Virus record (IMG/VR): IMGVR_UViG_3300035661_000004
Length of the DNA stretch: 64,000 nucleotides
Reading direction: 5' to 3' (one strand)
Origin: a virus
Lineage: Duplodnaviria > Caudoviricetes
Part shown: one piece after another, positions 6,317 through 57,774 of the stretch
Layout: every line of letters starts with the position of its first letter
Position numbering within the stretch: position 1 is the first letter of the stretch
The notes under the pieces: generated by a model
The model's input: the letters and a program-made list of their open reading frames with translations, nothing else
The model's database searches: none
What the model was told of the DNA's origin: nothing
Position numbers and translations under genes: made by a program

Positions 6317-6322
6317 TATTTA
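6317..6322 (-). promoter_or_regulatory. Late promoter TAAATA, 5 nt before ATG
   Basis: TAAATA-gctct-ATG. Confidence 0.7.
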
Positions 6323-10359: not shown

Positions 10360-11130
10360 TTATTTAGTCAGGTAGGCAATTGCGTTGTCAAGCGACTCTT
10401 GCCTGCCAGTCACGGCTTCATCTTCGATGAAGATTGGGCGCTTAGGGTAGTGCTTCGTCCAGTCACGCTTAAGCAGCTCCTCATACGTCTCGCCCCAGTG
10501 GAAGATCTCTACGTTAACAAGCTGCTCGACCTTGGAGCGAGGTTGACGACCGGGAACCATCAACGAGTCCTGGTCATCAATGATGATGACGACTTTCTGG
10601 TAGAGGGTAGAGAACCGATGACCATCATCCACAGGCGCAAGGACAAACACAAACCTGTCTGTTGTTGCGCCGTCTGCGGAAACACCTTTGGTCTTGATGA
10701 TGTTGCTGACAGTCTCGTAGTCAAGGTTCTCGAGGTCCTGCTGAAACTTCAAGATGCGCCGCTTTATTGGCACGACACCTTCATCCTCCTTGACCACGGG
10801 CGGCACGTAGGAGAGGCACTTAGGCAAGCGCTTGTACTTGTCCTTCAGCACAGCCACAAGCTCCTGCACGGTCCGGAACTTCTTCTCATGCTTCGAGTCA
10901 ACGAAGTAGGTGCTCGTGTCCTCCCAGCCAAACAGCGGCTTGTAGAGCTTGATCACGTCCCTGAGCCCATAGCCCTTGACCACGATGCAAAGCTTCGAGC
11001 GGTTTATAATTCCGGGTTTTGAGCTGGACTTGACTTCGGCCTCGAAGCCCTTTGCCTCGAGCTCCTTAGCGAAGCGAGACAGGGTTGTATGGGCGCTAGG
11101 GCCTGTATCGAGCAGTTCAAGTAGCTTCAT
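10360..11130 (-). CDS. Hypothetical protein with MKLLELLD leader and internal QQ motif (256 aa)
   Basis: ATGA-coupled start at 11130; internal RRILKFQQDLENLDYET. Confidence 0.75.
   Translation of the reverse strand: MKLLELLDTGPSAHTTLSRFAKELEAKGFEAEVKSSSKPGIINRSKLCIVVKGYGLRDVIKLYKPLFGWEDTSTYFVDSKHEKKFRTVQELVAVLKDKYKRLPKCLSYVPPVVKEDEGVVPIKRRILKFQQDLENLDYETVSNIIKTKGVSADGATTDRFVFVLAPVDDGHRFSTLYQKVVIIIDDQDSLMVPGRQPRSKVEQLVNVEIFHWGETYEELLKRDWTKHYPKRPIFIEDEAVTGRQESLDNAIAYLTK
10361..10366 (-). promoter_or_regulatory. Late promoter TAAATA, 6 nt before the gp6 ATG
   Basis: TAAATA-agccct-ATG. Confidence 0.6.
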
Positions 11131-25551: not shown

Positions 25552-25557
25552 TAAATA
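25552..25557 (+). promoter_or_regulatory. Late promoter TAAATA, 6 nt before ATG
   Basis: TAAATA-agctca-ATG. Confidence 0.65.
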
Positions 25558-25563
25558 AGCTCA

Positions 25564-26124
25564 ATGACTGATACACAAATCAACGAGCTGAAGCCCGCTC
25601 GCAAGAAGGCCGTCAACGGTCGCGCTAAAGGCGCGGGCTTCGAGCTGACCATGGCGAAGCTCCTCTCAACTACCTTCGCGCCGCTGAACTTCAAGCGGAC
25701 ACAGTCGAGCGGCGCGATCGTCGGCGGCAGGAACTCCTGGCAAACCCAGCTCTACAGCCAGCACATGCTGTCGGCCTTTGTCGGCGACATCTTCCCAGTC
25801 AATGAGGAGGACATAGCCAAGGCAGAGGGCTGGAAGTTCCGATTCACCGTCGAGTGCAAGTTTTATCAGTCACAGGATGCGTTTGCGACATTGTTCAAAA
25901 ATCCTCAGCTATTGACATGGTGGGCACAAGCTAAGAGAGACGCTGCTAAGATCCCAGACCGCGAGCCATTGCTTATTTGCAAATTCAACTTCACAGATAC
26001 ATACGTTGGGTTTGAATGCGACCCTCCCAAAACTGTTTCTCGCGTTGTACAGATCGACGATGTGAAATTTTGTCTGATGAATGAAGCCTTAAAGGATCTT
26101 AATTGGTGGAAAGCAAAGCTGTAG
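25564..26124 (+). CDS. Holliday junction resolvase (Hjc-like)
   Basis: NGRAKGAGFE...R..SSGA...GDI...VECK motif. Confidence 0.8.
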   Translation: MTDTQINELKPARKKAVNGRAKGAGFELTMAKLLSTTFAPLNFKRTQSSGAIVGGRNSWQTQLYSQHMLSAFVGDIFPVNEEDIAKAEGWKFRFTVECKFYQSQDAFATLFKNPQLLTWWAQAKRDAAKIPDREPLLICKFNFTDTYVGFECDPPKTVSRVVQIDDVKFCLMNEALKDLNWWKAKL

Positions 26125-26463
26125 TCTACATGTACATTGATCCCAAGACCGATACGCCTCGCTATCGGTAAAGGGCTTCCTCATAGACTATTTGATCATC
26201 TTAAGTGGTCTCATAATGTCATGCTTCACAATCTCATTAAGAGAAGGCTACAGCATGACACCGACAATATAGACTGTCAAGGATGATGCTACAGCTCAAG
26301 TCATTGAAAGATTTTGGTAGCTGTCTATGGTCGCGCTGACTTAAACACAGGAACGCTATTCAATCACACTGATGGAGGTGATGGTGCTTCAAATCTCTCA
26401 GAGATCACGCTACAGCGCATGTCAGACGCCCAAAGGGCCACGTGGGGGAGATCCAGAGATTAG
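26125..26463 (+). pseudogene. Degenerate GIY-YIG homing endonuclease
   Basis: Fragments in different frames: VYMYIDPKTDTPRY / GKGLPHRLFDHLK / VYGRADLNTGTLFNHTDGGDG; no start codon, several frameshifts and stops. Confidence 0.8.
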
Positions 26464-26552
26464 AGCAAAGAAGCCAGCAGGGATTAAGGATGCATGGGCG
26501 GATCCAACTGGTAAATAGCCACCCGAGGACCTGCTGATATACTATACACGAG

Positions 26553-26680
26553 ATGAATACGCTGGCCGTTGGAATTCTCATCTCTTCCTGCGGTTCCTCG
26601 TCGGGCGCCGCATCATCCTCATGATCGTTGATGCATACGACCCCCGCAATCACAAACTACCTGGACAAACGATATGGGCC
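26553..26680 (+). pseudogene. Possible small membrane-protein gene with frameshift near 26582
   Basis: MNTLAVGILI continues as LFLRFLVGRRIILMIVDAYD if one C is added; 3' end uncertain. Confidence 0.35.
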
Positions 26681-27033
26681 ACAAGGCAGCCAAGAAGGCG
26701 CGCAAGCTCCTCAATACCCTCCAAGCTCAAACCGGCGATAAGGACAGCTGGACGGAGCACGTCTATGTCGAGAACGAGAATCGGCGGAAGAAGCAGCTCG
26801 TTGAGCTGAAGACCGGCGAGGAGAAGGAGATCACCGTCTCCCTGGGTCAGCTGACCCTTAAGCCTGGCTCCGGACGCGCGGTCTACAAGGTCATCAAGCG
26901 CGCGATGCAGGGCAAGGCCTCAGGCGTCAACAGCAAGCCGTTGACCAACTTCCCAGTCGCGACCGCTGGCTTGCCTGTACAGCAGAAGCTGCTGCCCGTC
27001 GCCGAACCCACCTTCATCGAAACCGAAGAGTGA
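26674..27033 (+). CDS. Hypothetical basic protein
   Basis: 119-aa ORF with phage-like codon usage, GTGA-coupled to the next gene. Confidence 0.7.
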   Translation: MGHKAAKKARKLLNTLQAQTGDKDSWTEHVYVENENRRKKQLVELKTGEEKEITVSLGQLTLKPGSGRAVYKVIKRAMQGKASGVNSKPLTNFPVATAGLPVQQKLLPVAEPTFIETEE

Positions 27034-27401
27034 TCATCGACTTAGAGCGGAAAGACGCTCTAGCCCAGGCGATTGTAATGGCTCACGACAATGAGATCAT
27101 TGACATCGCCTGCCGCACGCTTGACACGTCGTACAAGCAAGTCAGCCATGTTTGGGTTGGCCCGAAACGAGCTCTCCACATGACGCTCTCGCTCATTGTA
27201 GGCTCTAAGGCCCGCATCGAGCATGAGTACATCATCACGGGTGTGACAGGCGTCAAGCCTGGCTACAAATACTGCATGCTACGTCGCCATGTCGGCGACT
27301 ACACGTCCACGCCACTTAAAGAGGCCTTTGAAGCATTTGCCTACGCGCGAGTGAAGCAGGGCCTTTGGCAAACCGAGTCCGCAATCAGCGGCTCTTCATA
27401 A
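27030..27401 (+). CDS. Hypothetical protein
   Basis: 123-aa ORF with coupled GTG start. Confidence 0.6.
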   Translation: MIIDLERKDALAQAIVMAHDNEIIDIACRTLDTSYKQVSHVWVGPKRALHMTLSLIVGSKARIEHEYIITGVTGVKPGYKYCMLRRHVGDYTSTPLKEAFEAFAYARVKQGLWQTESAISGSS

Positions 27402-27414
27402 AGCTCATAATGGT

Positions 27415-27714
27415 AAGGTCCCGAAGCACCTAGTATGACGCCGCTCTTTGGTTGAACTTCAGAAAAGAGGAGCGGGCTGAGGCGTCCCAGATTCGCCTTT
27501 CCCTGTGTTAGAGGCCCGGGGATGGAGCATGTACGAGCATGCCCGATAAACAGCTATGCCTAAGTCATCTTTGCAGATAGCGGTACTCCGCGGCTGATAA
27601 CTCGTTGCAAGGCAGGAGGGTGATGGCTCCTGACCAACTGTAACACTCGTCATGGAATCCCAACGGTTAAGGGGTGGGAACCATGGGTGTGCCTGCTGTC
27701 TACATCCCCCGGAC
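27415..27714 (-). ncRNA. Candidate structured non-coding RNA (~300 nt), family unknown
   Basis: TAAATA at 27720-27725 puts +1 at G27714; closing stem GUCCGGGG(G)AUG/CAUCCCCGGGC, at least seven further stems, GCAA and cUUCGg tetraloops on the minus strand; no credible ORF. Confidence 0.6.
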
Positions 27715-27719
27715 GGTAC

Positions 27720-27725
27720 TATTTA
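27720..27725 (-). promoter_or_regulatory. Late promoter TAAATA in front of the candidate ncRNA
   Basis: cATAAATAg with no downstream CDS. Confidence 0.6.
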
Positions 27726-27744
27726 TGGGCGCACAAACCTGCAT

Positions 27745-27970
27745 CTAAATGCAATAGGACACATGGCTTGGCAACCGCCAACACCTTCGTTCTAAGCATA
27801 TGATGAGGTATGGGCCTCCTAAGCCTTCCGTCAGCTGTTGCTTAGTACTGGAGGTCGGGATCACGTCGTTTGAGCTCCACGTGACCTTGCCCGCATTGGT
27901 GTGAAGGTAGAGCTGCCCGTTCTTCTGGCTCAGCTTGATGTCAGTAGGTGCTGTTGCAGCTTAAGGAGCT
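27745..27970 (-). pseudogene. Frameshifted QQ-domain remnant at the 3' end of the HNH gene
   Basis: HNH ORF ends LLKLQQHLLTSS*; another frame continues DIKLSQKNGQLYLHTNAGKVTW to TAG at 27745. Confidence 0.5.
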
Positions 27971-28400
27971 TTTGCGCTCGGCGCTCATCGAGAATCTCCC
28001 GTTCACCGATGCTCTTCTCCTGGTTGCAAGGATAGCACATCGTTGTGGTGTTGGTCAGGTCATCCCTGCCGCCGAGCGAGCGAGCGAGGGTGTGGTCATG
28101 AGTGAACAGGACCTCCTCTTGCGTTTCAGGGTGAACGCCGTAGAGGTTGGCGTGCGGGTTGTCATTGCCCGGATTGTTCGTTTGGCGCTCGACGCCAAAG
28201 TGCGTGGCTTGCAAGCCGCACTTAACACAGCAGAGCCGTGCACGGTCACGCCCAAACGTACGCATGCGGAGCGAGACCACGCCGATGCTGTACCCTTCGA
28301 AGAGCACGCGCCCCTTCCTGAGGCCCATGTGCTCCTTGATCGCGTCTAAGACAGGCTCAAGGGGTATGTTGGCCAAGCGTGTGTAGAGCTGTGCTGTCAT
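27930..28400 (-). CDS. HNH endonuclease
   Basis: CVKC...HDHTLARSLGGRDDLTNTTTMCYPCN. Confidence 0.85.
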   Translation of the reverse strand: MTAQLYTRLANIPLEPVLDAIKEHMGLRKGRVLFEGYSIGVVSLRMRTFGRDRARLCCVKCGLQATHFGVERQTNNPGNDNPHANLYGVHPETQEEVLFTHDHTLARSLGGRDDLTNTTTMCYPCNQEKSIGEREILDERRAQKLLKLQQHLLTSS

Positions 28401-28601
28401 CGTTTGTATCTTTGGAAAAGTTCAAGCGTGACTTCGGCTATCGTGTCAGCCTCCTTGTCACACGTGTGGGTTGACTGCCAGATGCGAGAAGATCTTGTAG
28501 TAGGCCGTTGCGGTGCTTGTGTCACCTCGCTTGCGCTCCTCCGTCGGCCACTTGAAAAGGGTCTCGACCATGACCAATGTTTCAATGTGCTCGGGGCTCA
28601 T
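28397..28601 (-). pseudogene. Small hypothetical gene with apparent +1 frameshift near 28469
   Basis: ATGA-coupled MSPEHIETL...LAVN joins HTCDKEADTIAEVTLELFQRYKR* (ATGA-coupled to the HNH gene) if one C is removed. Confidence 0.55.
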
Positions 28602-28933
28602 GCTTGCACGCTAGCCACAAGAGCGACGGGCAGCTTGGCCAGGAAGTCAACCATGTCGGTAGCGGTCTCGCCGCAAGCCTTGGTAGCTTCCATCCACTTC
28701 AGCGGGCTCACGCCCTTGTTGGGCATGTTGAGGAAGGCGTTGATTGCCGTGCCCTTGACCTTGCCTGCTTCGAAAGCCTGATCGAGAGCGAGCGCGTCGG
28801 CGTCTTTGACGTTCTTTTGGCTTGCTGAAATCTTCCCGCCGCTGAAGCTGCGGGTCAAGTTCAGCCGATGGCCAGCGGCTGACACAACAGTAACGCGGAT
28901 GTAGTCGTGCTGCGAAGTGTAGAGTGTCTTCAT
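28598..28933 (-). CDS. Hypothetical early protein
   Basis: AAGGA-type RBS; sigma70-like promoter upstream. Confidence 0.75.
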   Translation of the reverse strand: MKTLYTSQHDYIRVTVVSAAGHRLNLTRSFSGGKISASQKNVKDADALALDQAFEAGKVKGTAINAFLNMPNKGVSPLKWMEATKACGETATDMVDFLAKLPVALVASVQA

Positions 28934-28969
28934 TGCGAGTCCTTAAGTTTACCGATTGCCGATATGATG

Positions 28970-28999
28970 ATTGTACATCATCACGGACCACGGTGAAAC
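28970..28999 (-). promoter_or_regulatory. Sigma70-type early promoter
   Basis: TTTCAC-18-TACAAT. Confidence 0.45.
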
Positions 29000-29020
29000 A
29001 AGAACTTACAAAAAGACGGT

Positions 29021-29047
29021 CACGAAGCTGGCTCAGCTTCGTGTTTT
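29021..29047. terminator. Hairpin/probable terminator
   Basis: CACGAAGCTG-gct-CAGCTTCGTG with flanking T/A runs. Confidence 0.55.
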
Positions 29048-29050
29048 ACC

Positions 29051-29287
29051 TTACCAGAAGACAGGGACCTGCTTCTTAATGAGGTCATTGACCTCCTTGA
29101 ACCGGTCATTCAAGAACTCAACCGCACGGTCACGTTCCATCGGCGACATGGCCCACACGTCATTACGTGTGTAGTGGCCACGGAAGTAGTAACCCATTGA
29201 CGTGAGCGATTTAACCAACGCTTCATTCTCAGTCTCGAAGGACTTGAACACTCGGGTGATGACCTGTTGGTCACCGGAGCCAATCAC
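29051..29287 (-). CDS. Baseplate hub assembly protein, gp51-like
   Basis: LTSMGYYFRGHYTRNDVWAMSPMERD motif; directly after the gp26-like gene. Confidence 0.6.
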   Translation of the reverse strand: MIGSGDQQVITRVFKSFETENEALVKSLTSMGYYFRGHYTRNDVWAMSPMERDRAVEFLNDRFKEVNDLIKKQVPVFW

Positions 29288-30102
29288 CCGTAGAAGAAAG
29301 AAATTGGGTTCAGGTCGAGCGGGTGAGGGAATGTCTCACCGCAGTCCTTGCATACCAGCTTAGCGGTGTAGTCGTAGCCCCAGCTGTCCGTTCGGCTGAT
29401 GCCAGCCATCAGCTCATTGAGGAGCTTCTTGGACACGCAGCGAAGCCACTCAACCAGCTTAGACCTGTCAGTGATCGGCGTTGACGTGGCGTCATTTTGG
29501 ACACTCTCGATCACATTTAGCAGGTCATCAATAGCTACTCGCTCGAGGTCATCATCTGACGGCTTATGACCGTCATTCTCAGCTCGATCCATCTCCATGC
29601 GCATGTGCATGATGCGCAGCGAGTCCTCATAGGTGTTCGGCTTGATGTTGACCACCTGCTCGTTTGACAGGGTAACCTTGTAGAGGGTGTCCTTGTGCTT
29701 AAGCACGCCATTGTTAGGCTGTGACAGCAGATGCTCGATGTTTAGCTCGTACGAGTGCTGCTTAGCGTTCTCGCAGTCATGCTGCGTGCTGAGCTGCATG
29801 ACTGGGCCGTAGGTAGCGACTCGTAGGAAGGTGAACAGCGCGTCCACGTCCTTGCTGATCAGCAAGCCAGGCTTCAGGATCTCGGGTGCGCATTCGGCGC
29901 AGATGTCCTTGATGATCTTGCCTGAGTAGAGCAAGTCAGCTGAGCGAACCTTCATCTCCATCAATGCTGACATGGGTGACACGTGCACTTCGCCGTTCTT
30001 AACGGACTCGGCGAGCACGCCAGGCCCGTAGAAGACGCCCATTGACGGCAGCGCGAAGACGCGACCTGGGAGCTTGACTTTGCTTAGGAGAGGATTTGTC
30101 AT
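29284..30102 (-). CDS. Baseplate hub subunit, gp26-like
   Basis: NPL...LPSMGVFY; DVDALFTFLRVATYG; two Cys pairs including C-terminal CKDCG. Confidence 0.7.
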   Translation of the reverse strand: MTNPLLSKVKLPGRVFALPSMGVFYGPGVLAESVKNGEVHVSPMSALMEMKVRSADLLYSGKIIKDICAECAPEILKPGLLISKDVDALFTFLRVATYGPVMQLSTQHDCENAKQHSYELNIEHLLSQPNNGVLKHKDTLYKVTLSNEQVVNIKPNTYEDSLRIMHMRMEMDRAENDGHKPSDDDLERVAIDDLLNVIESVQNDATSTPITDRSKLVEWLRCVSKKLLNELMAGISRTDSWGYDYTAKLVCKDCGETFPHPLDLNPISFFYG

Positions 30103-30515
30103 TTGCGTTTTTTTGAGGATGCTTTATTGATGCTGCCTGGCTGCGACTGCTGCCTGACAGTTTGAATCTTGGGAGGCTTCATGACCTTGTCTCGAGTCAT
30201 CGCTAGCGACTTGATAGGCATCTTGATCAGCTTCCAAATGGGGCACATGCGAGCGAGCTCGTAAGTCATGAGCGGTTCATCACCGTTGATCATGCGTGAC
30301 TCGTTGGCCTGCATCATCCACCGAAGGAAGACCTCCTTGAACGGGATCGGCTTGACAGGAAGGTTGTCAAGGTCGAGCACAAGCATCTGCATGTTGGTAG
30401 ACAGCGGCAGCAGCGGGATGGCGCGGTACCGCTCATAAGCGGCTTCGAGCAAGCCAGATGACTTCAGCATGATGCCTAGCGTCTTGAGGGTCTTAGCGTC
30501 TATCTCGGTGTTCAT
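30099..30515 (-). CDS. Hypothetical protein
   Basis: 138-aa ORF with late promoter upstream, coupled to the gp26-like gene. Confidence 0.65.
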   Translation of the reverse strand: MNTEIDAKTLKTLGIMLKSSGLLEAAYERYRAIPLLPLSTNMQMLVLDLDNLPVKPIPFKEVFLRWMMQANESRMINGDEPLMTYELARMCPIWKLIKMPIKSLAMTRDKVMKPPKIQTVRQQSQPGSINKASSKKRK

Positions 30516-55348: not shown

Positions 55349-56959
55349 ATGGCTGATGAGATTACACCTACAGGCCCAGCACCGCTTGACTGCAGTCCGC
55401 CGAACCCAAAGTTCGCATACGACACGGCGCCTGCCGTATACAAGCCGCCTGAGGTCTGCATCGGCACGGTTGACTACTCGACATCAGAGTGCGCTGACAA
55501 CGAAGCCAACTACATCGCCAGCCTCCAGGCTGAAGCGCTGGAGATGGCCGCTGGCCCCGTCAATGTTTTCCCGATGCTTGGCGTTCACAGTCAAGGCTCA
55601 ACCGTTGACATGGTCACGTCGGCAGGCTATCCGCTGTCCTCGGGCGCGCCGTCAGGCTACAACGCGCTCGACACCTTCAACGTCAATGACGCTTCGTGGC
55701 GCTCTGTTCAGCAAGGTGCTGATGTCATTAGCGCGCCCGCATTCATCGGCTTCTCATTCGGCACGAAGAAGGCGTGGGACAAGCTGGGCGCGCCGCAAGA
55801 GCGGTACTTCACACCTGAGCCTGTTCGAAAGCAGGTAGGCTCGTTCAAGATCAGGCAGGGTGTGGTCGCCGAAAACCGTGCTACGAAAGCTCGAGTGGAA
55901 GCGAGCGATGACGGTCTCGAGTGGAAGCGTGTAGGAATCGTTTCCTTGCCTGACACTAGTGACCTAGTCACTGTAGGCGTGCCATCGAATGCAATGTACA
56001 ACCAGTGGCGCCTGGTGCCAATCTTCTTCAACGGTGTTTCGACCAACTCTCAGTGGGAGGTCATCGAGCTACACCTGCTTGAGGCTACAGCTACCAGCAT
56101 TGACAACATTCAGGACTTCTTCCTGATGGAGAACCGTGACAGGTCCTACAACCGTCAGTCTACTCTCCTCAAGTGTCAATATGACCTGCTTGACGTGCAG
56201 TCTGAGCTAGCAAAGTTCGGCATCAGCTTGCCACAGACCTACATCTTCACTTGCAGCTTCGCCGTCATGGTCCAGAAGCTAGGACGCCCGATCGTGGTCG
56301 GTGACGTGGTCGAGCTGCCCGGCGAGGTACAGTATGACGCCTTCTTGAAGCCTGTACGTAAGTGGCTCGAGGTGACAGACACAGCCTGGGCGACCGAAGG
56401 CTATGCATTCAACTGGAAACCGCAGCTGTTCAAATTCTATGCCCAGCCGATCATGCCATCGGTCGAGCATCGTGACCTGCTAGGCACACCAGGCAAGATC
56501 AACCAAGCGCAAGCCGATGACGACTTCTTGCTGGGCGCGCTGCAGAATGACCAAGCCTATAAGTCGACTGAAGCTATCATCCAGAAGAGCAAGGATGACG
56601 TGCCTCAAGTCGGCGGTGACCCGGCTAACATCATGTCAGGCAAGGCTATGGGCAAGCCGCCTGGCTCCTATGACGGGCGTGACCCGTATGTGCAAGACGC
56701 CTTACCTGCTGATGGTCAAGCGTTCACGTCGGGCGACGCCCTGCCGCCAGGCAACACGATCACAGCAGGCCATTTCCACCGTCAGACCTACACAAACCTC
56801 CCTGCTAGCCTGCGACCGCCTGATCGGCTGCTGAAGTGGAACGGCTCCCGCTGGAACGTGATCGAAGTCAACACGCGTGACAAGTACTCGTCGCACAAGC
56901 GGACCATCGACAAGGTGCTCGCTTCGCCGAACAAGGTTAACCTGGACAAGAAGCTATGA
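55349..56959 (+). CDS. gp14: Neck protein gp14-like with inserted discoidin (F5/8 type C)-like domain
   Basis: IQDFFLMENRDRSY...LSKFG-type segment...LGRPIVVGDVVELP; insert has VEASDDGLEW...YNQWRL...WEVIEL. Confidence 0.75.
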   Translation: MADEITPTGPAPLDCSPPNPKFAYDTAPAVYKPPEVCIGTVDYSTSECADNEANYIASLQAEALEMAAGPVNVFPMLGVHSQGSTVDMVTSAGYPLSSGAPSGYNALDTFNVNDASWRSVQQGADVISAPAFIGFSFGTKKAWDKLGAPQERYFTPEPVRKQVGSFKIRQGVVAENRATKARVEASDDGLEWKRVGIVSLPDTSDLVTVGVPSNAMYNQWRLVPIFFNGVSTNSQWEVIELHLLEATATSIDNIQDFFLMENRDRSYNRQSTLLKCQYDLLDVQSELAKFGISLPQTYIFTCSFAVMVQKLGRPIVVGDVVELPGEVQYDAFLKPVRKWLEVTDTAWATEGYAFNWKPQLFKFYAQPIMPSVEHRDLLGTPGKINQAQADDDFLLGALQNDQAYKSTEAIIQKSKDDVPQVGGDPANIMSGKAMGKPPGSYDGRDPYVQDALPADGQAFTSGDALPPGNTITAGHFHRQTYTNLPASLRPPDRLLKWNGSRWNVIEVNTRDKYSSHKRTIDKVLASPNKVNLDKKL

Positions 56960-57771
56960 GGCTAACTGAAGGCATGATCAAGCTTCCATCCGTTACTGCT
57001 GAGATGCGGACTGTGATGCTTGAGTGGTACTTTGCCTATGTCGAGCGGGTCATCACGAAGCGGATGACCGGCTCTGACTTATCTGATGCTACACGGCTTA
57101 TTAGAGCGGTCGAGACTCGTCACGGCGTTAAGCTAACGCTTGCTGACATTGAGAACGGCCACCAACGGTTTCGCACTCGAAGCTTCGTCATTGATGAGAC
57201 CTTCTACGGCGTCCCCGTGGACATCACGGTAGCCATGCGGCTGATCTTTGATAAGGATGAGAAGCTCGGTCGCAGCGGGGGCATGTATGACGAGGATGAC
57301 GGCCCGTTCATCCGCTTGTCCCCGTTCAACTTACGGATGACAGGCCCGTCAATCGGCACGCTTGACTCGCTAAAAGCTTCGCTGTCCAAGGTCCCGATGC
57401 TCATCAAGATGCTTGAGCATGAGCTGACCCACCTAGTGCAGTACCAATCATTGCACTACAAGCATGGCAAGCAGACGCGCATGCACTCAGACTACGAAGC
57501 TGAGTCTGACGACTACAACCTGAGTGACATCGAGTTTGACCCGCTGATCAAGTCGGCGGTCGGGCGCTTGAAGCACCTGCAAGCAAAGTACAAGACCATC
57601 CCAGGTTACACCGAGCGCGCCCTAACCGACGCATACGTGCTCGCGGCTGACCCGCCAGAGTGGATGAACCCTGCTGATACCAGCAACTTCTTCGACACGC
57701 TCTATAACCGGGCGCCTATGAAGTGGAAGAAGGCCGTTAAGCTCTTCATGCACGAGCTTTCGGTTTCCTAA
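56956..57771 (+). CDS. HExxH metallopeptidase-like protein
   Basis: LEHELTHLVQY motif; MRLTE leader. Confidence 0.6.
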   Translation: MRLTEGMIKLPSVTAEMRTVMLEWYFAYVERVITKRMTGSDLSDATRLIRAVETRHGVKLTLADIENGHQRFRTRSFVIDETFYGVPVDITVAMRLIFDKDEKLGRSGGMYDEDDGPFIRLSPFNLRMTGPSIGTLDSLKASLSKVPMLIKMLEHELTHLVQYQSLHYKHGKQTRMHSDYEAESDDYNLSDIEFDPLIKSAVGRLKHLQAKYKTIPGYTERALTDAYVLAADPPEWMNPADTSNFFDTLYNRAPMKWKKAVKLFMHELSVS

Positions 57772-57774
57772 ATA
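57769..57774 (+). promoter_or_regulatory. Late promoter TAAATA overlapping a TAA stop
   Basis: Upstream of 57790. Confidence 0.55.

What the first reader, a model, noticed from the sequence alone, without database searches (positions are those of the whole stretch)
27415..27725. Candidate novel ~300-nt structured late ncRNA
Seen on the minus strand: TAAATA (27725-27720) plus the usual 5-nt spacer puts +1 at G27714, the first base of a stem GUCCGGGG(G)AUG pairing with CAUCCCCGGGC (27524-27514). UAGACAGC (27702-27695) pairs with GCUGUUUA (27554-27547), making a junction with hairpin GCAUG-CUCGUA-CAUGC. Inner hairpins: CAUGG/UCCCA (27685-27651), CAGGAG/CUCCUG (27632-27613), GCGG-AGUA-CCGC, AUCU-GCAA-AGAU (GNRA loop). 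Downstream: AGGCG/CGCCU, CCGCUC/GAGCGG and GGUGC-UUCG-GGACC (cUUCGg loop). Both stable tetraloops read correctly only on the promoter's strand. No RBS-led, codon-biased ORF. It lacks the hallmark motifs I know for tRNA, tmRNA, RNase P, SRP and hammerhead RNAs.
Basis: partly seen in the sequence, partly recalled or inferred. Interest (0 to 1): 0.8.

Follow-up and report, generated by a model that had tools for sequence, protein, structure and literature searches.

The report
New structured RNA in giant phages
The gap holds a real, conserved RNA-like element of about 410 bases with many compensating base-pair changes and no match to any catalogued RNA family, shared by a small group of uncultured giant T4-like phages; it is longer and folds differently than first proposed, and which strand is read is still open.

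Summary
There is a real feature here, but it is not quite the one described. The conserved element spans about 27413-27823 (411 nt), not 27415-27725.

I recovered three further lineages beside homologues of the neighbouring 119-aa gene (L015, L016/L017/L019, L025). Four near-identical variants came from unrelated sequencing runs.

The element is better conserved than its flanking genes. Its hairpins show many compensatory changes: 18 of 66 pairs on the fitted alignment, against 7.2 in shuffles and 0-2 in slid controls.

Rfam 15 matches nothing in any lineage, and ARAGORN finds nothing.

The two long-range stems that closed his "domain" at G27714 (P1, P2) show only uncompensated mismatches. Covariation supports different long-range pairings instead:
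- 27818-27812 with 27511-27517
- 27710-27707 with 27671-27674
- 27650-27646 with the loop 27533-27537

The strand is unresolved. TAAATA and an invariant cUUCGg favour the minus strand. Gene context in L016 and RsoM2USA, consensus folding energy and wobble patterns favour the plus strand. I lean towards plus, at about 60%.

A weak candidate homologue lies in an unannotated gap of the cultured Ralstonia phage RsoM2USA.

The function is unknown. My best guess is a stable, trans-acting scaffold or ribozyme-like RNA made late in infection.

The parts
27413..27823 (.). Whole conserved structured element (411 nt). The strand that is read is not settled. The numbering of the helices below follows the minus-strand reading.
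   Evidence: The ends of conservation are seen in alignments A2 and A3 of four lineages, in the nhmmer hit 27415-27822 and in contigs from unrelated runs covering 27404-27818.
27812..27818 (.). H1, first strand (GAGGCCC). Pairs with 27511-27517.
   Evidence: 7 base pairs, all canonical in every sequence. G27816:C27513 becomes A:U in L015, L016 and L025. Stacks of at least 7 bp with a double change: 0.00 expected in column shuffles.
27511..27517 (.). H1, second strand (GGGCCUC).
27726..27811 (.). Variable long hairpin domain. In the window it carries a ~35-60-nt insertion with two small hairpins (UUGGC-GGUU-GCCAA and GCAU-UUAG-AUGC).
   Evidence: The same outer helix is predicted in all four lineages, with a length difference of 35-50 nt. 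The loops vary in X6 and X7.
27720..27725 (-). TAAATA late-promoter-like motif inside the element.
   Evidence: 25 copies in the window against 6 expected. Kept in L015, L025, X6, X7 and X17. It reads TGTAGA in the L016 lineage.
27707..27710 (.). H2, first strand (GGGG). Pairs with the loop CCCC at 27671-27674, forming a pseudoknot.
   Evidence: G:C becomes A:U at 27707:27674 in L025 and L016, and at 27710:27671 in L016. Stacks with at least 2 double changes: 0.12 expected, 3 seen.
27651..27685 (.). P3 hairpin (CAUGG...CCAUG). Its loop holds the H2 partner, 27671-27674.
   Evidence: 7 of 11 pairs changed on both sides on the fitted alignment (helix 4). G27682:C27654 becomes A:U in X6.
27646..27650 (.). 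Pseudoknot strand ACGAG. Pairs with the P6 loop at 27533-27537.
   Evidence: A27650:U27533 becomes G:C in X6, X17, L015, L025 and L016.
27604..27644 (.). H4 (27644-27639 with 27604-27609) enclosing the P4 hairpin 27611-27635. The P4 loop is CAYCACC.
   Evidence: H4 has two pairs with double changes (27643:27605 and 27639:27609). P4 has 5 pairs changed on both sides (helix 5). The same shape is predicted in five sequences.
27551..27596 (.). H5 (27596-27592 with 27551-27555) enclosing the hairpins GCGG/CCGC (27580-27591) and UAUCU/AGAUG (27566-27579).
   Evidence: 27592:27555 is C:G in the run variants, U:A in the L lineages and C.A in the window. A paired deletion of 27575 and 27570 is seen in X7.
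27525..27544 (.). P6 hairpin (GGGCAUG-CUCGUA-CAUGCUC).
   Evidence: 4 pairs changed on both sides, 100% of cells paired (helix 9).
27480..27498 (.). H8 hairpin (AGGCG/CGCCU).
   Evidence: Kept in all lineages, with G:C to U:A in L015. On the plus strand it is followed by a U-rich run and scored as terminator-like in L016.
27441..27475 (.). H7 hairpin (CCGCUC/GAGCGG) with an invariant 14-nt loop, CUGAAGUUCAACCA (27449-27462).
   Evidence: 3-5 pairs changed on both sides. The loop is identical in all four lineages.
27417..27430 (.). Terminal hairpin with invariant GCUUCGG. On the minus strand this reads as cUUCGg.
   Evidence: The stem changes from U:A to C:G between lineages, while the loop is invariant.
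27930..28400 (-). Neighbouring free-standing HNH endonuclease gene. It is not part of the element.
   Evidence: Pfam HNH_5 at 2e-07 and PHROG HNH families. It is absent beside the element in L016 and L025. Another HNH gene flanks the equivalent gap in a relative whose DNA could not be read.
26674..27033 (+). 119-aa gene used as the synteny anchor. The element always lies downstream of it.

Best explanation
Window 27413-27823 encodes a member of a previously uncatalogued family of structured RNAs, 360-410 nt long. The family is carried by a small clade of uncultured giant T4-like phages.

**Shown**
- The sequence is better conserved than the neighbouring genes.
- About a dozen helices keep their pairing through compensatory changes.
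- These include one helix that joins the two ends of a ~300-nt block and two loop-to-strand pseudoknots.
- Several unpaired stretches are invariant: CUGAAGUUCAACCA, GCUUCGG, UAGCUGUUUAUCGG, CAUCCCCGGGC and CGAGUUAUCAGC.

**Inferred**
- It is a stable RNA made late in infection. It folds into a compact, pseudoknotted body and presents the invariant loops to a partner, either a protein or another RNA. It therefore acts as a scaffold or a ribozyme-like RNA, not as an antisense regulator.
- It is more likely (about 60%) read from the plus strand, as part of the late PDDEXK/119-aa transcript and then probably trimmed out, than from the minus strand.
- The TAAATA inside it may in addition start a shorter minus-strand transcript.
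For: **Conservation**
- Unrelated runs hold 27404-27818 at 88-95% identity, while the flanks fall below 80%.
- Between lineages the element is 84-89% identical, against 73-78% nt and 39-51% aa for the adjacent gene.

**Homologues**
- They lie at a syntenic place in four lineages.

**Covariation**
- 18 of 66 pairs are changed on both sides, against 7.2 +/- 1.9 in shuffles (0 of 500 reach it). Slid controls give 0-2.
- Against column shuffles, stacks of at least 7 bp with a double change are 0.00 expected and 3 seen. Stacks with at least 2 double changes are 0.12 expected and 3 seen.

**No known family**
- Rfam gives nothing at gathering score or at E <= 10 in four lineages. ARAGORN gives nothing.

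**Not coding**
-.

**Plus-strand lean**
- In L016 both flanking genes are on the plus strand. A late promoter lies upstream (3317) and another directly after the element (4811). There is no minus-strand TAAATA in the 3.6 kb beyond it.
- In the RsoM2USA candidate, a TAAATA 170 nt away reads through it in that sense into gene 82.
- Consensus folding energy is -100.9 (plus) against -84.4 (minus). Summed by region it is -87.7 against -74.8.
- Mean z over the lineages is -1.95 against -1.0.

**Late timing**
- All promoters in reach are of the TAAATA type.

**Context with other stable RNAs**
- A permuted tmRNA gene lies 90 nt away in L019 and 900 nt away in L016.
Against: - No expression data could be laid for any strand.
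- Only four lineages are in hand, so many 'events' are single.
- Strand evidence conflicts:
  - G:U and A.C cells in the supported helices are 22 against 23.
  - The formal pair counts are alike on both strands.
  - TAAATA on the minus strand is unlikely by chance and is kept in three lineages.
  - cUUCGg is invariant and reads as a stable tetraloop only on the minus strand.
  - The P6 hairpin and the UAUCU hairpin keep wobble pairs only on the minus strand.
- The RsoM2USA match is weak: 15.5 bits, E 0.024.
- Function is inferred from anatomy alone.
Confidence: 0.55

Rival explanations
1. This is a stand-alone minus-strand late ncRNA. Either it starts about 6 nt after TAAATA at G27714 (~300 nt), or it starts upstream of 27818 and is processed. 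It ends at the cUUCGg hairpin next to the stop codon of the convergent gene.
For: - TAAATAG fits the phage's late-promoter consensus, and the motif is four-fold enriched. It is kept in L015, L025, X6, X7 and X17.
- cUUCGg is invariant.
- The minus-strand core folds at z = -3.15 against -1.30 for plus.
- Wobble pairs in P6, in the UAUCU hairpin and in UUGUG/CAUAA are standard only on the minus strand.
- The L015 whole-element z favours minus.
Against: - The stems that begin at G27714 (P1, P2) are not supported by covariation.
- The 100 nt upstream of the proposed start are conserved and tied to the rest by H1.
- The L016 lineage has lost TAAATA and has no minus-strand late promoter within 3.6 kb.
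- There is no terminator-like U run after the hairpin.
- The P3, H4, H5, H8 and H7 wobble patterns favour the other strand.
Confidence: 0.3
2. It is a cis-acting part of the plus-strand late mRNA and not an independent RNA. It could be a long structured 3' UTR or leader that ends, insulates or stabilises the transcript of the PDDEXK/119-aa operon, or that controls the next gene.
For: - It starts 2-10 nt after the stop codon of the upstream plus-strand gene in the window, L016 and L015.
- On the plus strand, H8 is followed by a U-rich run and is scored as terminator-like in L016.
- In RsoM2USA the candidate sits in the leader of gene 82.
Against: - What lies downstream differs in every lineage: a convergent HNH gene, a convergent baseplate operon, a new promoter plus a gene, a tmRNA, or gene 82. 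No single regulated target is kept.
- 400 nt with pseudoknots and invariant loops is far more than a terminator or stabiliser needs.
- The element is better conserved than the genes it would serve.
Confidence: 0.15
3. It acts as DNA. Possible roles are a replication origin, a packaging or recombination site, or simply the conserved target next to which homing endonuclease genes insert. On this view the hairpins form in single-stranded DNA.
For: - There is no preference between G:U and A.C cells, 22 against 23, and the pair statistics are equal on both strands.
- HNH genes flank it in two relatives.
- The region is rich in homing-endonuclease-like genes.
Against: - Long-range helices across 300 nt and loop pseudoknots with compensatory changes are typical of folded RNA and not known for phage origins or pac sites.
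- There are no repeats or iterons.
- The element has one copy per genome stretch examined.
Confidence: 0.05

Closest known systems
GOLLD and ROOL RNAs (large ornate non-coding RNAs often found in phages and prophages next to tRNA genes; knowledge of the families is from memory, their absence here is from Rfam)
   Same: It is a large, intricately folded RNA with no ORF. It is phage-borne and lies close to a stable-RNA gene in some relatives (tmRNA 90 nt away in L019). Its function is unknown.
   Different: There is no sequence or structure match to either Rfam model, even at E <= 10. It is smaller, at 360-410 nt. It occurs in Gram-negative-type giant T4-like phages.
Bacterial RNase P RNA and tmRNA (stable RNAs of 350-400 nt with pseudoknots)
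   Same: The size class is the same. It has helices joining distant segments and two pseudoknots. Its unpaired stretches are invariant. It is carried by phages that also encode tRNAs and a tmRNA.
   Different: There is no Rfam or ARAGORN match. It has no tRNA-like end, no tag reading frame and no recognisable P4-type conserved regions.
Group I introns of T4-like phages with HNH or GIY-YIG endonuclease genes
   Same: It is a structured RNA of a few hundred nucleotides lying beside an HNH endonuclease gene in a T4-like phage.
   Different: There is no Intron_gpI match. No split host gene or exons are present: the flanks differ between lineages and are on the other strand or are whole genes. The HNH gene is absent in most lineages.
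T4 late promoters (TATAAATA) and late transcripts
   Same: The phage uses a shortened TAAATA(G) motif a few bases before gene starts, and one copy lies inside the element.
   Different: The full TATAAATA never occurs in the window. The copy inside the element is lost in one lineage, and half of it can be read as part of a hairpin.

Membership tests
Any Rfam 15 family (4227 models, including tRNA, tmRNA, RNase P, SRP, 6S, group I and II introns, GOLLD, ROOL, HEARO, OLE, riboswitches) | Covariance-model score at or above the family's gathering score. | tested here: not met
   There were no matches in the window at gathering score. Nothing relevant appeared at E <= 10 in 26000-30500, nor in L015, L019 or L025. 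In one search the only real hit was the neighbouring tmRNA.
tRNA / tmRNA | tRNA-like acceptor and T arm; for tmRNA, also a tag reading frame. | tested here: not met
   ARAGORN found no gene in the window and none inside the element in L015, L016, L019 or L025.
Group I intron | Conserved P3-P8 core recognised by the family model. | tested here: not met
   No Intron_gpI hit at E <= 10.
Group I intron | Interrupts a gene, with exons on the same strand on both sides. | tested here: not met
   The flanks are complete genes. They are on the opposite strand or differ between lineages.
Conserved structured RNA (generic criterion) | Base pairs kept through compensatory changes beyond what controls give. 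| tested here: met
   18 of 66 pairs changed on both sides, against 7.2 in shuffles (0 of 500 reach it) and 0-2 in slid controls. The caveats are that only four lineages were available and that the alignment was fitted to the model.
Conserved structured RNA (generic criterion) | A defined transcript from one strand. | not testable with these tools
   Only small, unlaid shares were found in RNA runs.
T4-type late transcription unit | Late-promoter motif at the right distance upstream of the 5' end. | tested here: inconclusive
   TAAATAG is present at 27725-27719 and in three lineages, and is lost in L016. The conserved structure extends 100 nt upstream of it.
GOLLD / ROOL-type ornate phage RNAs | Match to the family models. 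| tested here: not met

The most novel reading that the evidence does not exclude
It is a new class of phage-encoded catalytic or assembly RNA. The most specific form of this idea is an RNA that processes or partners the phage's own tRNA and permuted-tmRNA transcripts, or that assembles into a higher-order RNA particle. It would be conserved across a clade of giant phages and testable in the cultured Ralstonia phage RsoM2USA.
Probability: 0.2. Interest if true: 0.9.

Novelty: new member of a known kind. Interest (0 to 1): 0.68.

Why it matters
Large, pseudoknotted RNAs with invariant loops are rare. Historically they have turned out to be ribozymes, ribonucleoprotein scaffolds or self-assembling particles.

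This one is absent from Rfam 15, from 50,697 deposited phage genomes at the DNA level, and from IMG/VR by pattern scans. It is nevertheless kept at 84-95% identity in giant phages from sediment, microbial mats, wastewater and bioreactors.

It adds a candidate stable RNA to the set of translation-related RNAs (tRNAs, tmRNA) that giant phages carry. If the weak match in RsoM2USA is real, the family can be studied in a cultured phage-host pair.

Tried and rejected
**Searches that found nothing or only noise**
- blastn of the gap against the 'phages' and 'plasmids' collections: no match.
- An exact 20-mer scan of viral, genome and metagenome contigs: only chance 20-nt hits.
- Three further conserved-block patterns in IMG/VR: nothing.
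- The search for related loci with three neighbouring proteins in IMG/VR: nothing.
- The 64-aa ORF inside the element has no homologues.
- The plus-strand ORF 27030-27401 is an orphan.
- The 1.4-kb gap after the baseplate-hub gene of RsoM2USA shares no similarity with the element.
- The single-sequence model R1 found nothing in RsoM2USA or pf16.
- The four-lineage model R3 found nothing in XacN1, Xoo-sp13, Atu_ph07 or RAS14.
- Relatives with the 105-aa and 84-aa homologues (L021, L022, L024) lack the element.
- There is no second copy in the window.

**Expression**
- No RNA holder was listed with more than a small share.
- The X17 contig (27513-27724) comes from a library that is probably DNA.

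**Tests of strand that did not decide**
- Counts of G:U against A.C cells.
- Composition of unpaired positions.
- Shuffle z-scores.
- Matched covariance models on each strand.

**Readings rejected**
- A decayed coding gene. Stops occur in all frames and indels between lineages are 1-2 nt.
- A small conserved peptide at 27799-27719. It is kept in frame in X6 but not in L015.
- A mobile element. Organism-B contigs also match the neighbouring genes at about 80%, so these runs hold relatives of the phage.
- A terminal helix between 27818-27812 and 27430-27423, proposed by RNAalifold. The pairing with 27511-17 and the local 3' hairpin both have compensatory changes instead.

**Literature**
- Searches by topic and by the invariant sequence strings found nothing relevant.

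Full report
**Setting.** The finding lies in a 528-nt gap (27402-27929). On one side is the end of a plus-strand gene (27030-27401, an orphan). On the other is the end of a minus-strand HNH endonuclease gene (27930-28400). The window belongs to an uncultured giant T4-like phage. Its baseplate-hub protein is 40% identical to that of Ralstonia phage RsoM2USA, and more distantly related to XacN1, Atu_ph07 and the RaK2-like jumbo phages. No whole genome is held for the window.

**The observation.** TAAATA is a real signal in this phage. It occurs 25 times against 6.0 expected. Most copies sit 5-40 nt before gene starts in the right orientation, with consensus TAAATAG. The full T4 octamer TATAAATA never occurs.

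Folding energy by itself is unimpressive:
- z = -3.15 for the 205-nt 'closed' core on the minus strand, against -1.30 on the plus strand.
- About -1.7 on both strands for the whole element.

Rfam 15 gives nothing at gathering score or at E <= 10. ARAGORN gives nothing.

**Finding relatives.** Direct DNA searches failed. Two indirect routes worked.

The first was laying contigs of four unrelated runs on the region. This showed that 27404-27818 is held at 88-95% identity in wastewater and other samples, while the flanks drop below the 80% threshold. In one organism's runs, short contigs also match the neighbouring genes at about 80%. These runs therefore hold relatives of the phage, and the element is its best-conserved part.

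The second route used homologues of the neighbouring 119-aa protein, which led to contigs. A covariance model of the window's core found the element on these contigs at the same relative place and orientation:
- L015, 141 bits.
- L016/L017/L019, 97 bits.
- L025, 95 bits.

That gives four lineages of 357-411 nt. They are 84-89% identical to each other, while the anchor gene is 39-51% identical in protein.

**Is it structured?** Yes. On that alignment 18 of 66 pairs have changes on both sides. Shuffles give 7.2 +/- 1.9 and none of 500 reach 18. Sliding the partners by 1-3 columns gives 0-2.

The support sits in the local hairpins:
- P3: 7 pairs.
- P4: 5 pairs.
- P6: 4 pairs.
- In the 3' part, H7: 3-5 pairs.
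- H8 and the terminal hairpin: 1 pair each.

The run variants add recent events:
- U27539:A27530 to C:G.
- G27682:C27654 to A:U.
- A27650:U27533 to G:C.
- U27643:A27605 and A27639:U27609 both to G:C.
- A paired deletion of 27575 and 27570.

**What does not hold.** A scan of all column pairs gives other partners:
- G27710-G27707 pairs with C27671-C27674 in the P3 loop, with two G:C to A:U changes in L016 and L025.
- GCUG at 27554-27551 pairs with CAGC(C/U) at 27596-27592.
- ACGAG at 27650-27646 pairs with the P6 loop.
- GAGGCCC at 27818-27812 pairs with GGGCCUC at 27517-27511, with G:C to A:U.

Against 60 column shuffles, stacks of at least 7 bp with a double change are expected 0.00 times and seen 3 times. 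Stacks with at least two double changes are expected 0.12 times and seen 3 times.

The last of these helices ties the 100 nt upstream of the proposed start to the rest. The unit is therefore about 27823-27413. The GCAA loop is not conserved. The UUCG loop is invariant.

**Strand.** This is the weak point.

For the minus strand:
- TAAATA inside the element is kept in the window, L015, L025 and the run variants.
- cUUCGg is invariant.
- P6, the UAUCU hairpin and UUGUG/CAUAA keep wobble pairs that are standard only on the minus strand.

For the plus strand:
- The L016 lineage has TGTAGA in place of TAAATA. It sits between two plus-strand genes, with late promoters before and after it and none on the minus strand for 3.6 kb.
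- P3, H4, H5, H8 and H7 fold better, and keep their wobble pairs, on the plus strand in all four lineages.
- Consensus energies favour plus: -100.9 against -84.4, and -87.7 against -74.8 summed by region.

Counts of G:U against A.C cells are 22 against 23. A matched model built on the plus strand gives almost the same statistics: 14 of 59 pairs, score 0.331 against 0.316. I put the plus strand at about 60%. A sense RNA plus a shorter antisense RNA from TAAATA is possible.

**A cultured relative.** A four-lineage model gives one weak full-length hit in RsoM2USA, at MG752970.1 58526-58723 (15.5 bits, E 0.024). Sequence-only nhmmer finds the same place (E 0.003).

The hit lies in an unannotated 567-nt gap. 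It keeps:
- the P6 hairpin;
- AGCCGUUUAUCG;
- the CACCAC loop on a wholly different P4 stem;
- H5, with an A:U to G:C change.

RsoM2USA also uses TAAATA before its genes. One copy, 170 nt away, reads through the candidate in the window's plus sense into gene 82. XacN1, Xoo-sp13, Atu_ph07, RAS14 and pf16 have no match.

**What it is.** It is not a decayed gene, an intron, a tmRNA, an RNase P RNA or any catalogued family. What lies downstream differs in each lineage: a convergent HNH gene, a convergent baseplate operon, a new promoter and gene, a tmRNA, or gene 82. This argues against a cis-regulatory role and for an RNA that works on its own.

Its size, its two pseudoknots and its invariant unpaired stretches are the anatomy of a scaffold or ribozyme-like RNA. 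That step is inference. In the L016 lineage a permuted tmRNA gene lies 90-900 nt away. The same genome was noted earlier to carry tRNA arrays and a tmRNA under TAAATA. A role connected with stable-RNA or translation functions is therefore one concrete guess.

HNH genes beside it in two relatives fit a well-conserved sequence that serves as a landing place for homing endonucleases.

**Verdict.** This is a genuine new structured-RNA family. It is wrong in extent and in the two closing stems, and it is unproven in strand and promoter.

Noticed in passing
L019 1357-1588 (+) and L016 5686-6010 (+): A circularly permuted tmRNA gene sits directly behind a TAAATA motif. Rfam tmRNA_permuted scores 83.6 bits. 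The ARAGORN tag is ANDSTFAMAA. It lies 90 nt (L019) or about 900 nt (L016) from the element.
   Followed up: partly
window 6317-6322, 10361-10366, 25552-25557, 57769-57774 and others: Many TAAATA motifs lie only 5-12 nt before the ATG, so a number of late mRNAs would be leaderless or nearly so.
   Followed up: no
window 26124-26674: A second stretch of about 550 nt has no ORF over 50 aa on the plus strand. It carries a TAAATA at 26512 (+) and has no Rfam match beyond a chance snoRNA-like hit.
   Followed up: no
L031 245-322 (minus strand) = MG752970.1 about 55744-55821: ARAGORN calls a tRNA with anticodon CUA (an amber-reading type, labelled Pyl) in RsoM2USA. It overlaps the annotated CDS RsoM2USA_79.
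   Followed up: no
L007 8790-10190 = MG752970.1 about 251624-253024: A 1.4-kb stretch after the baseplate-hub gene of RsoM2USA has no annotated gene. It has no similarity to the element.
   Followed up: partly
Logan contig of SRR23617242 (no DNA served): Another relative has the same layout as the window: a 113-aa homologue, a 478-nt gap without genes, then a convergent HNH gene.
   Followed up: no
window 27745-27960 (-): Downstream of the HNH stop, another frame continues open with ...DIKLSQKNGQLYLH.... It ends where the conserved element begins.
   Followed up: no
L031 3932-4978 (-) = RsoM2USA_84: The gene beside the RsoM2USA candidate is a PP-loop ATPase of the TilS/QueC type (Pfam ATP_bind_3, 2e-36), that is, a tRNA-modification-type enzyme.
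   Followed up: no
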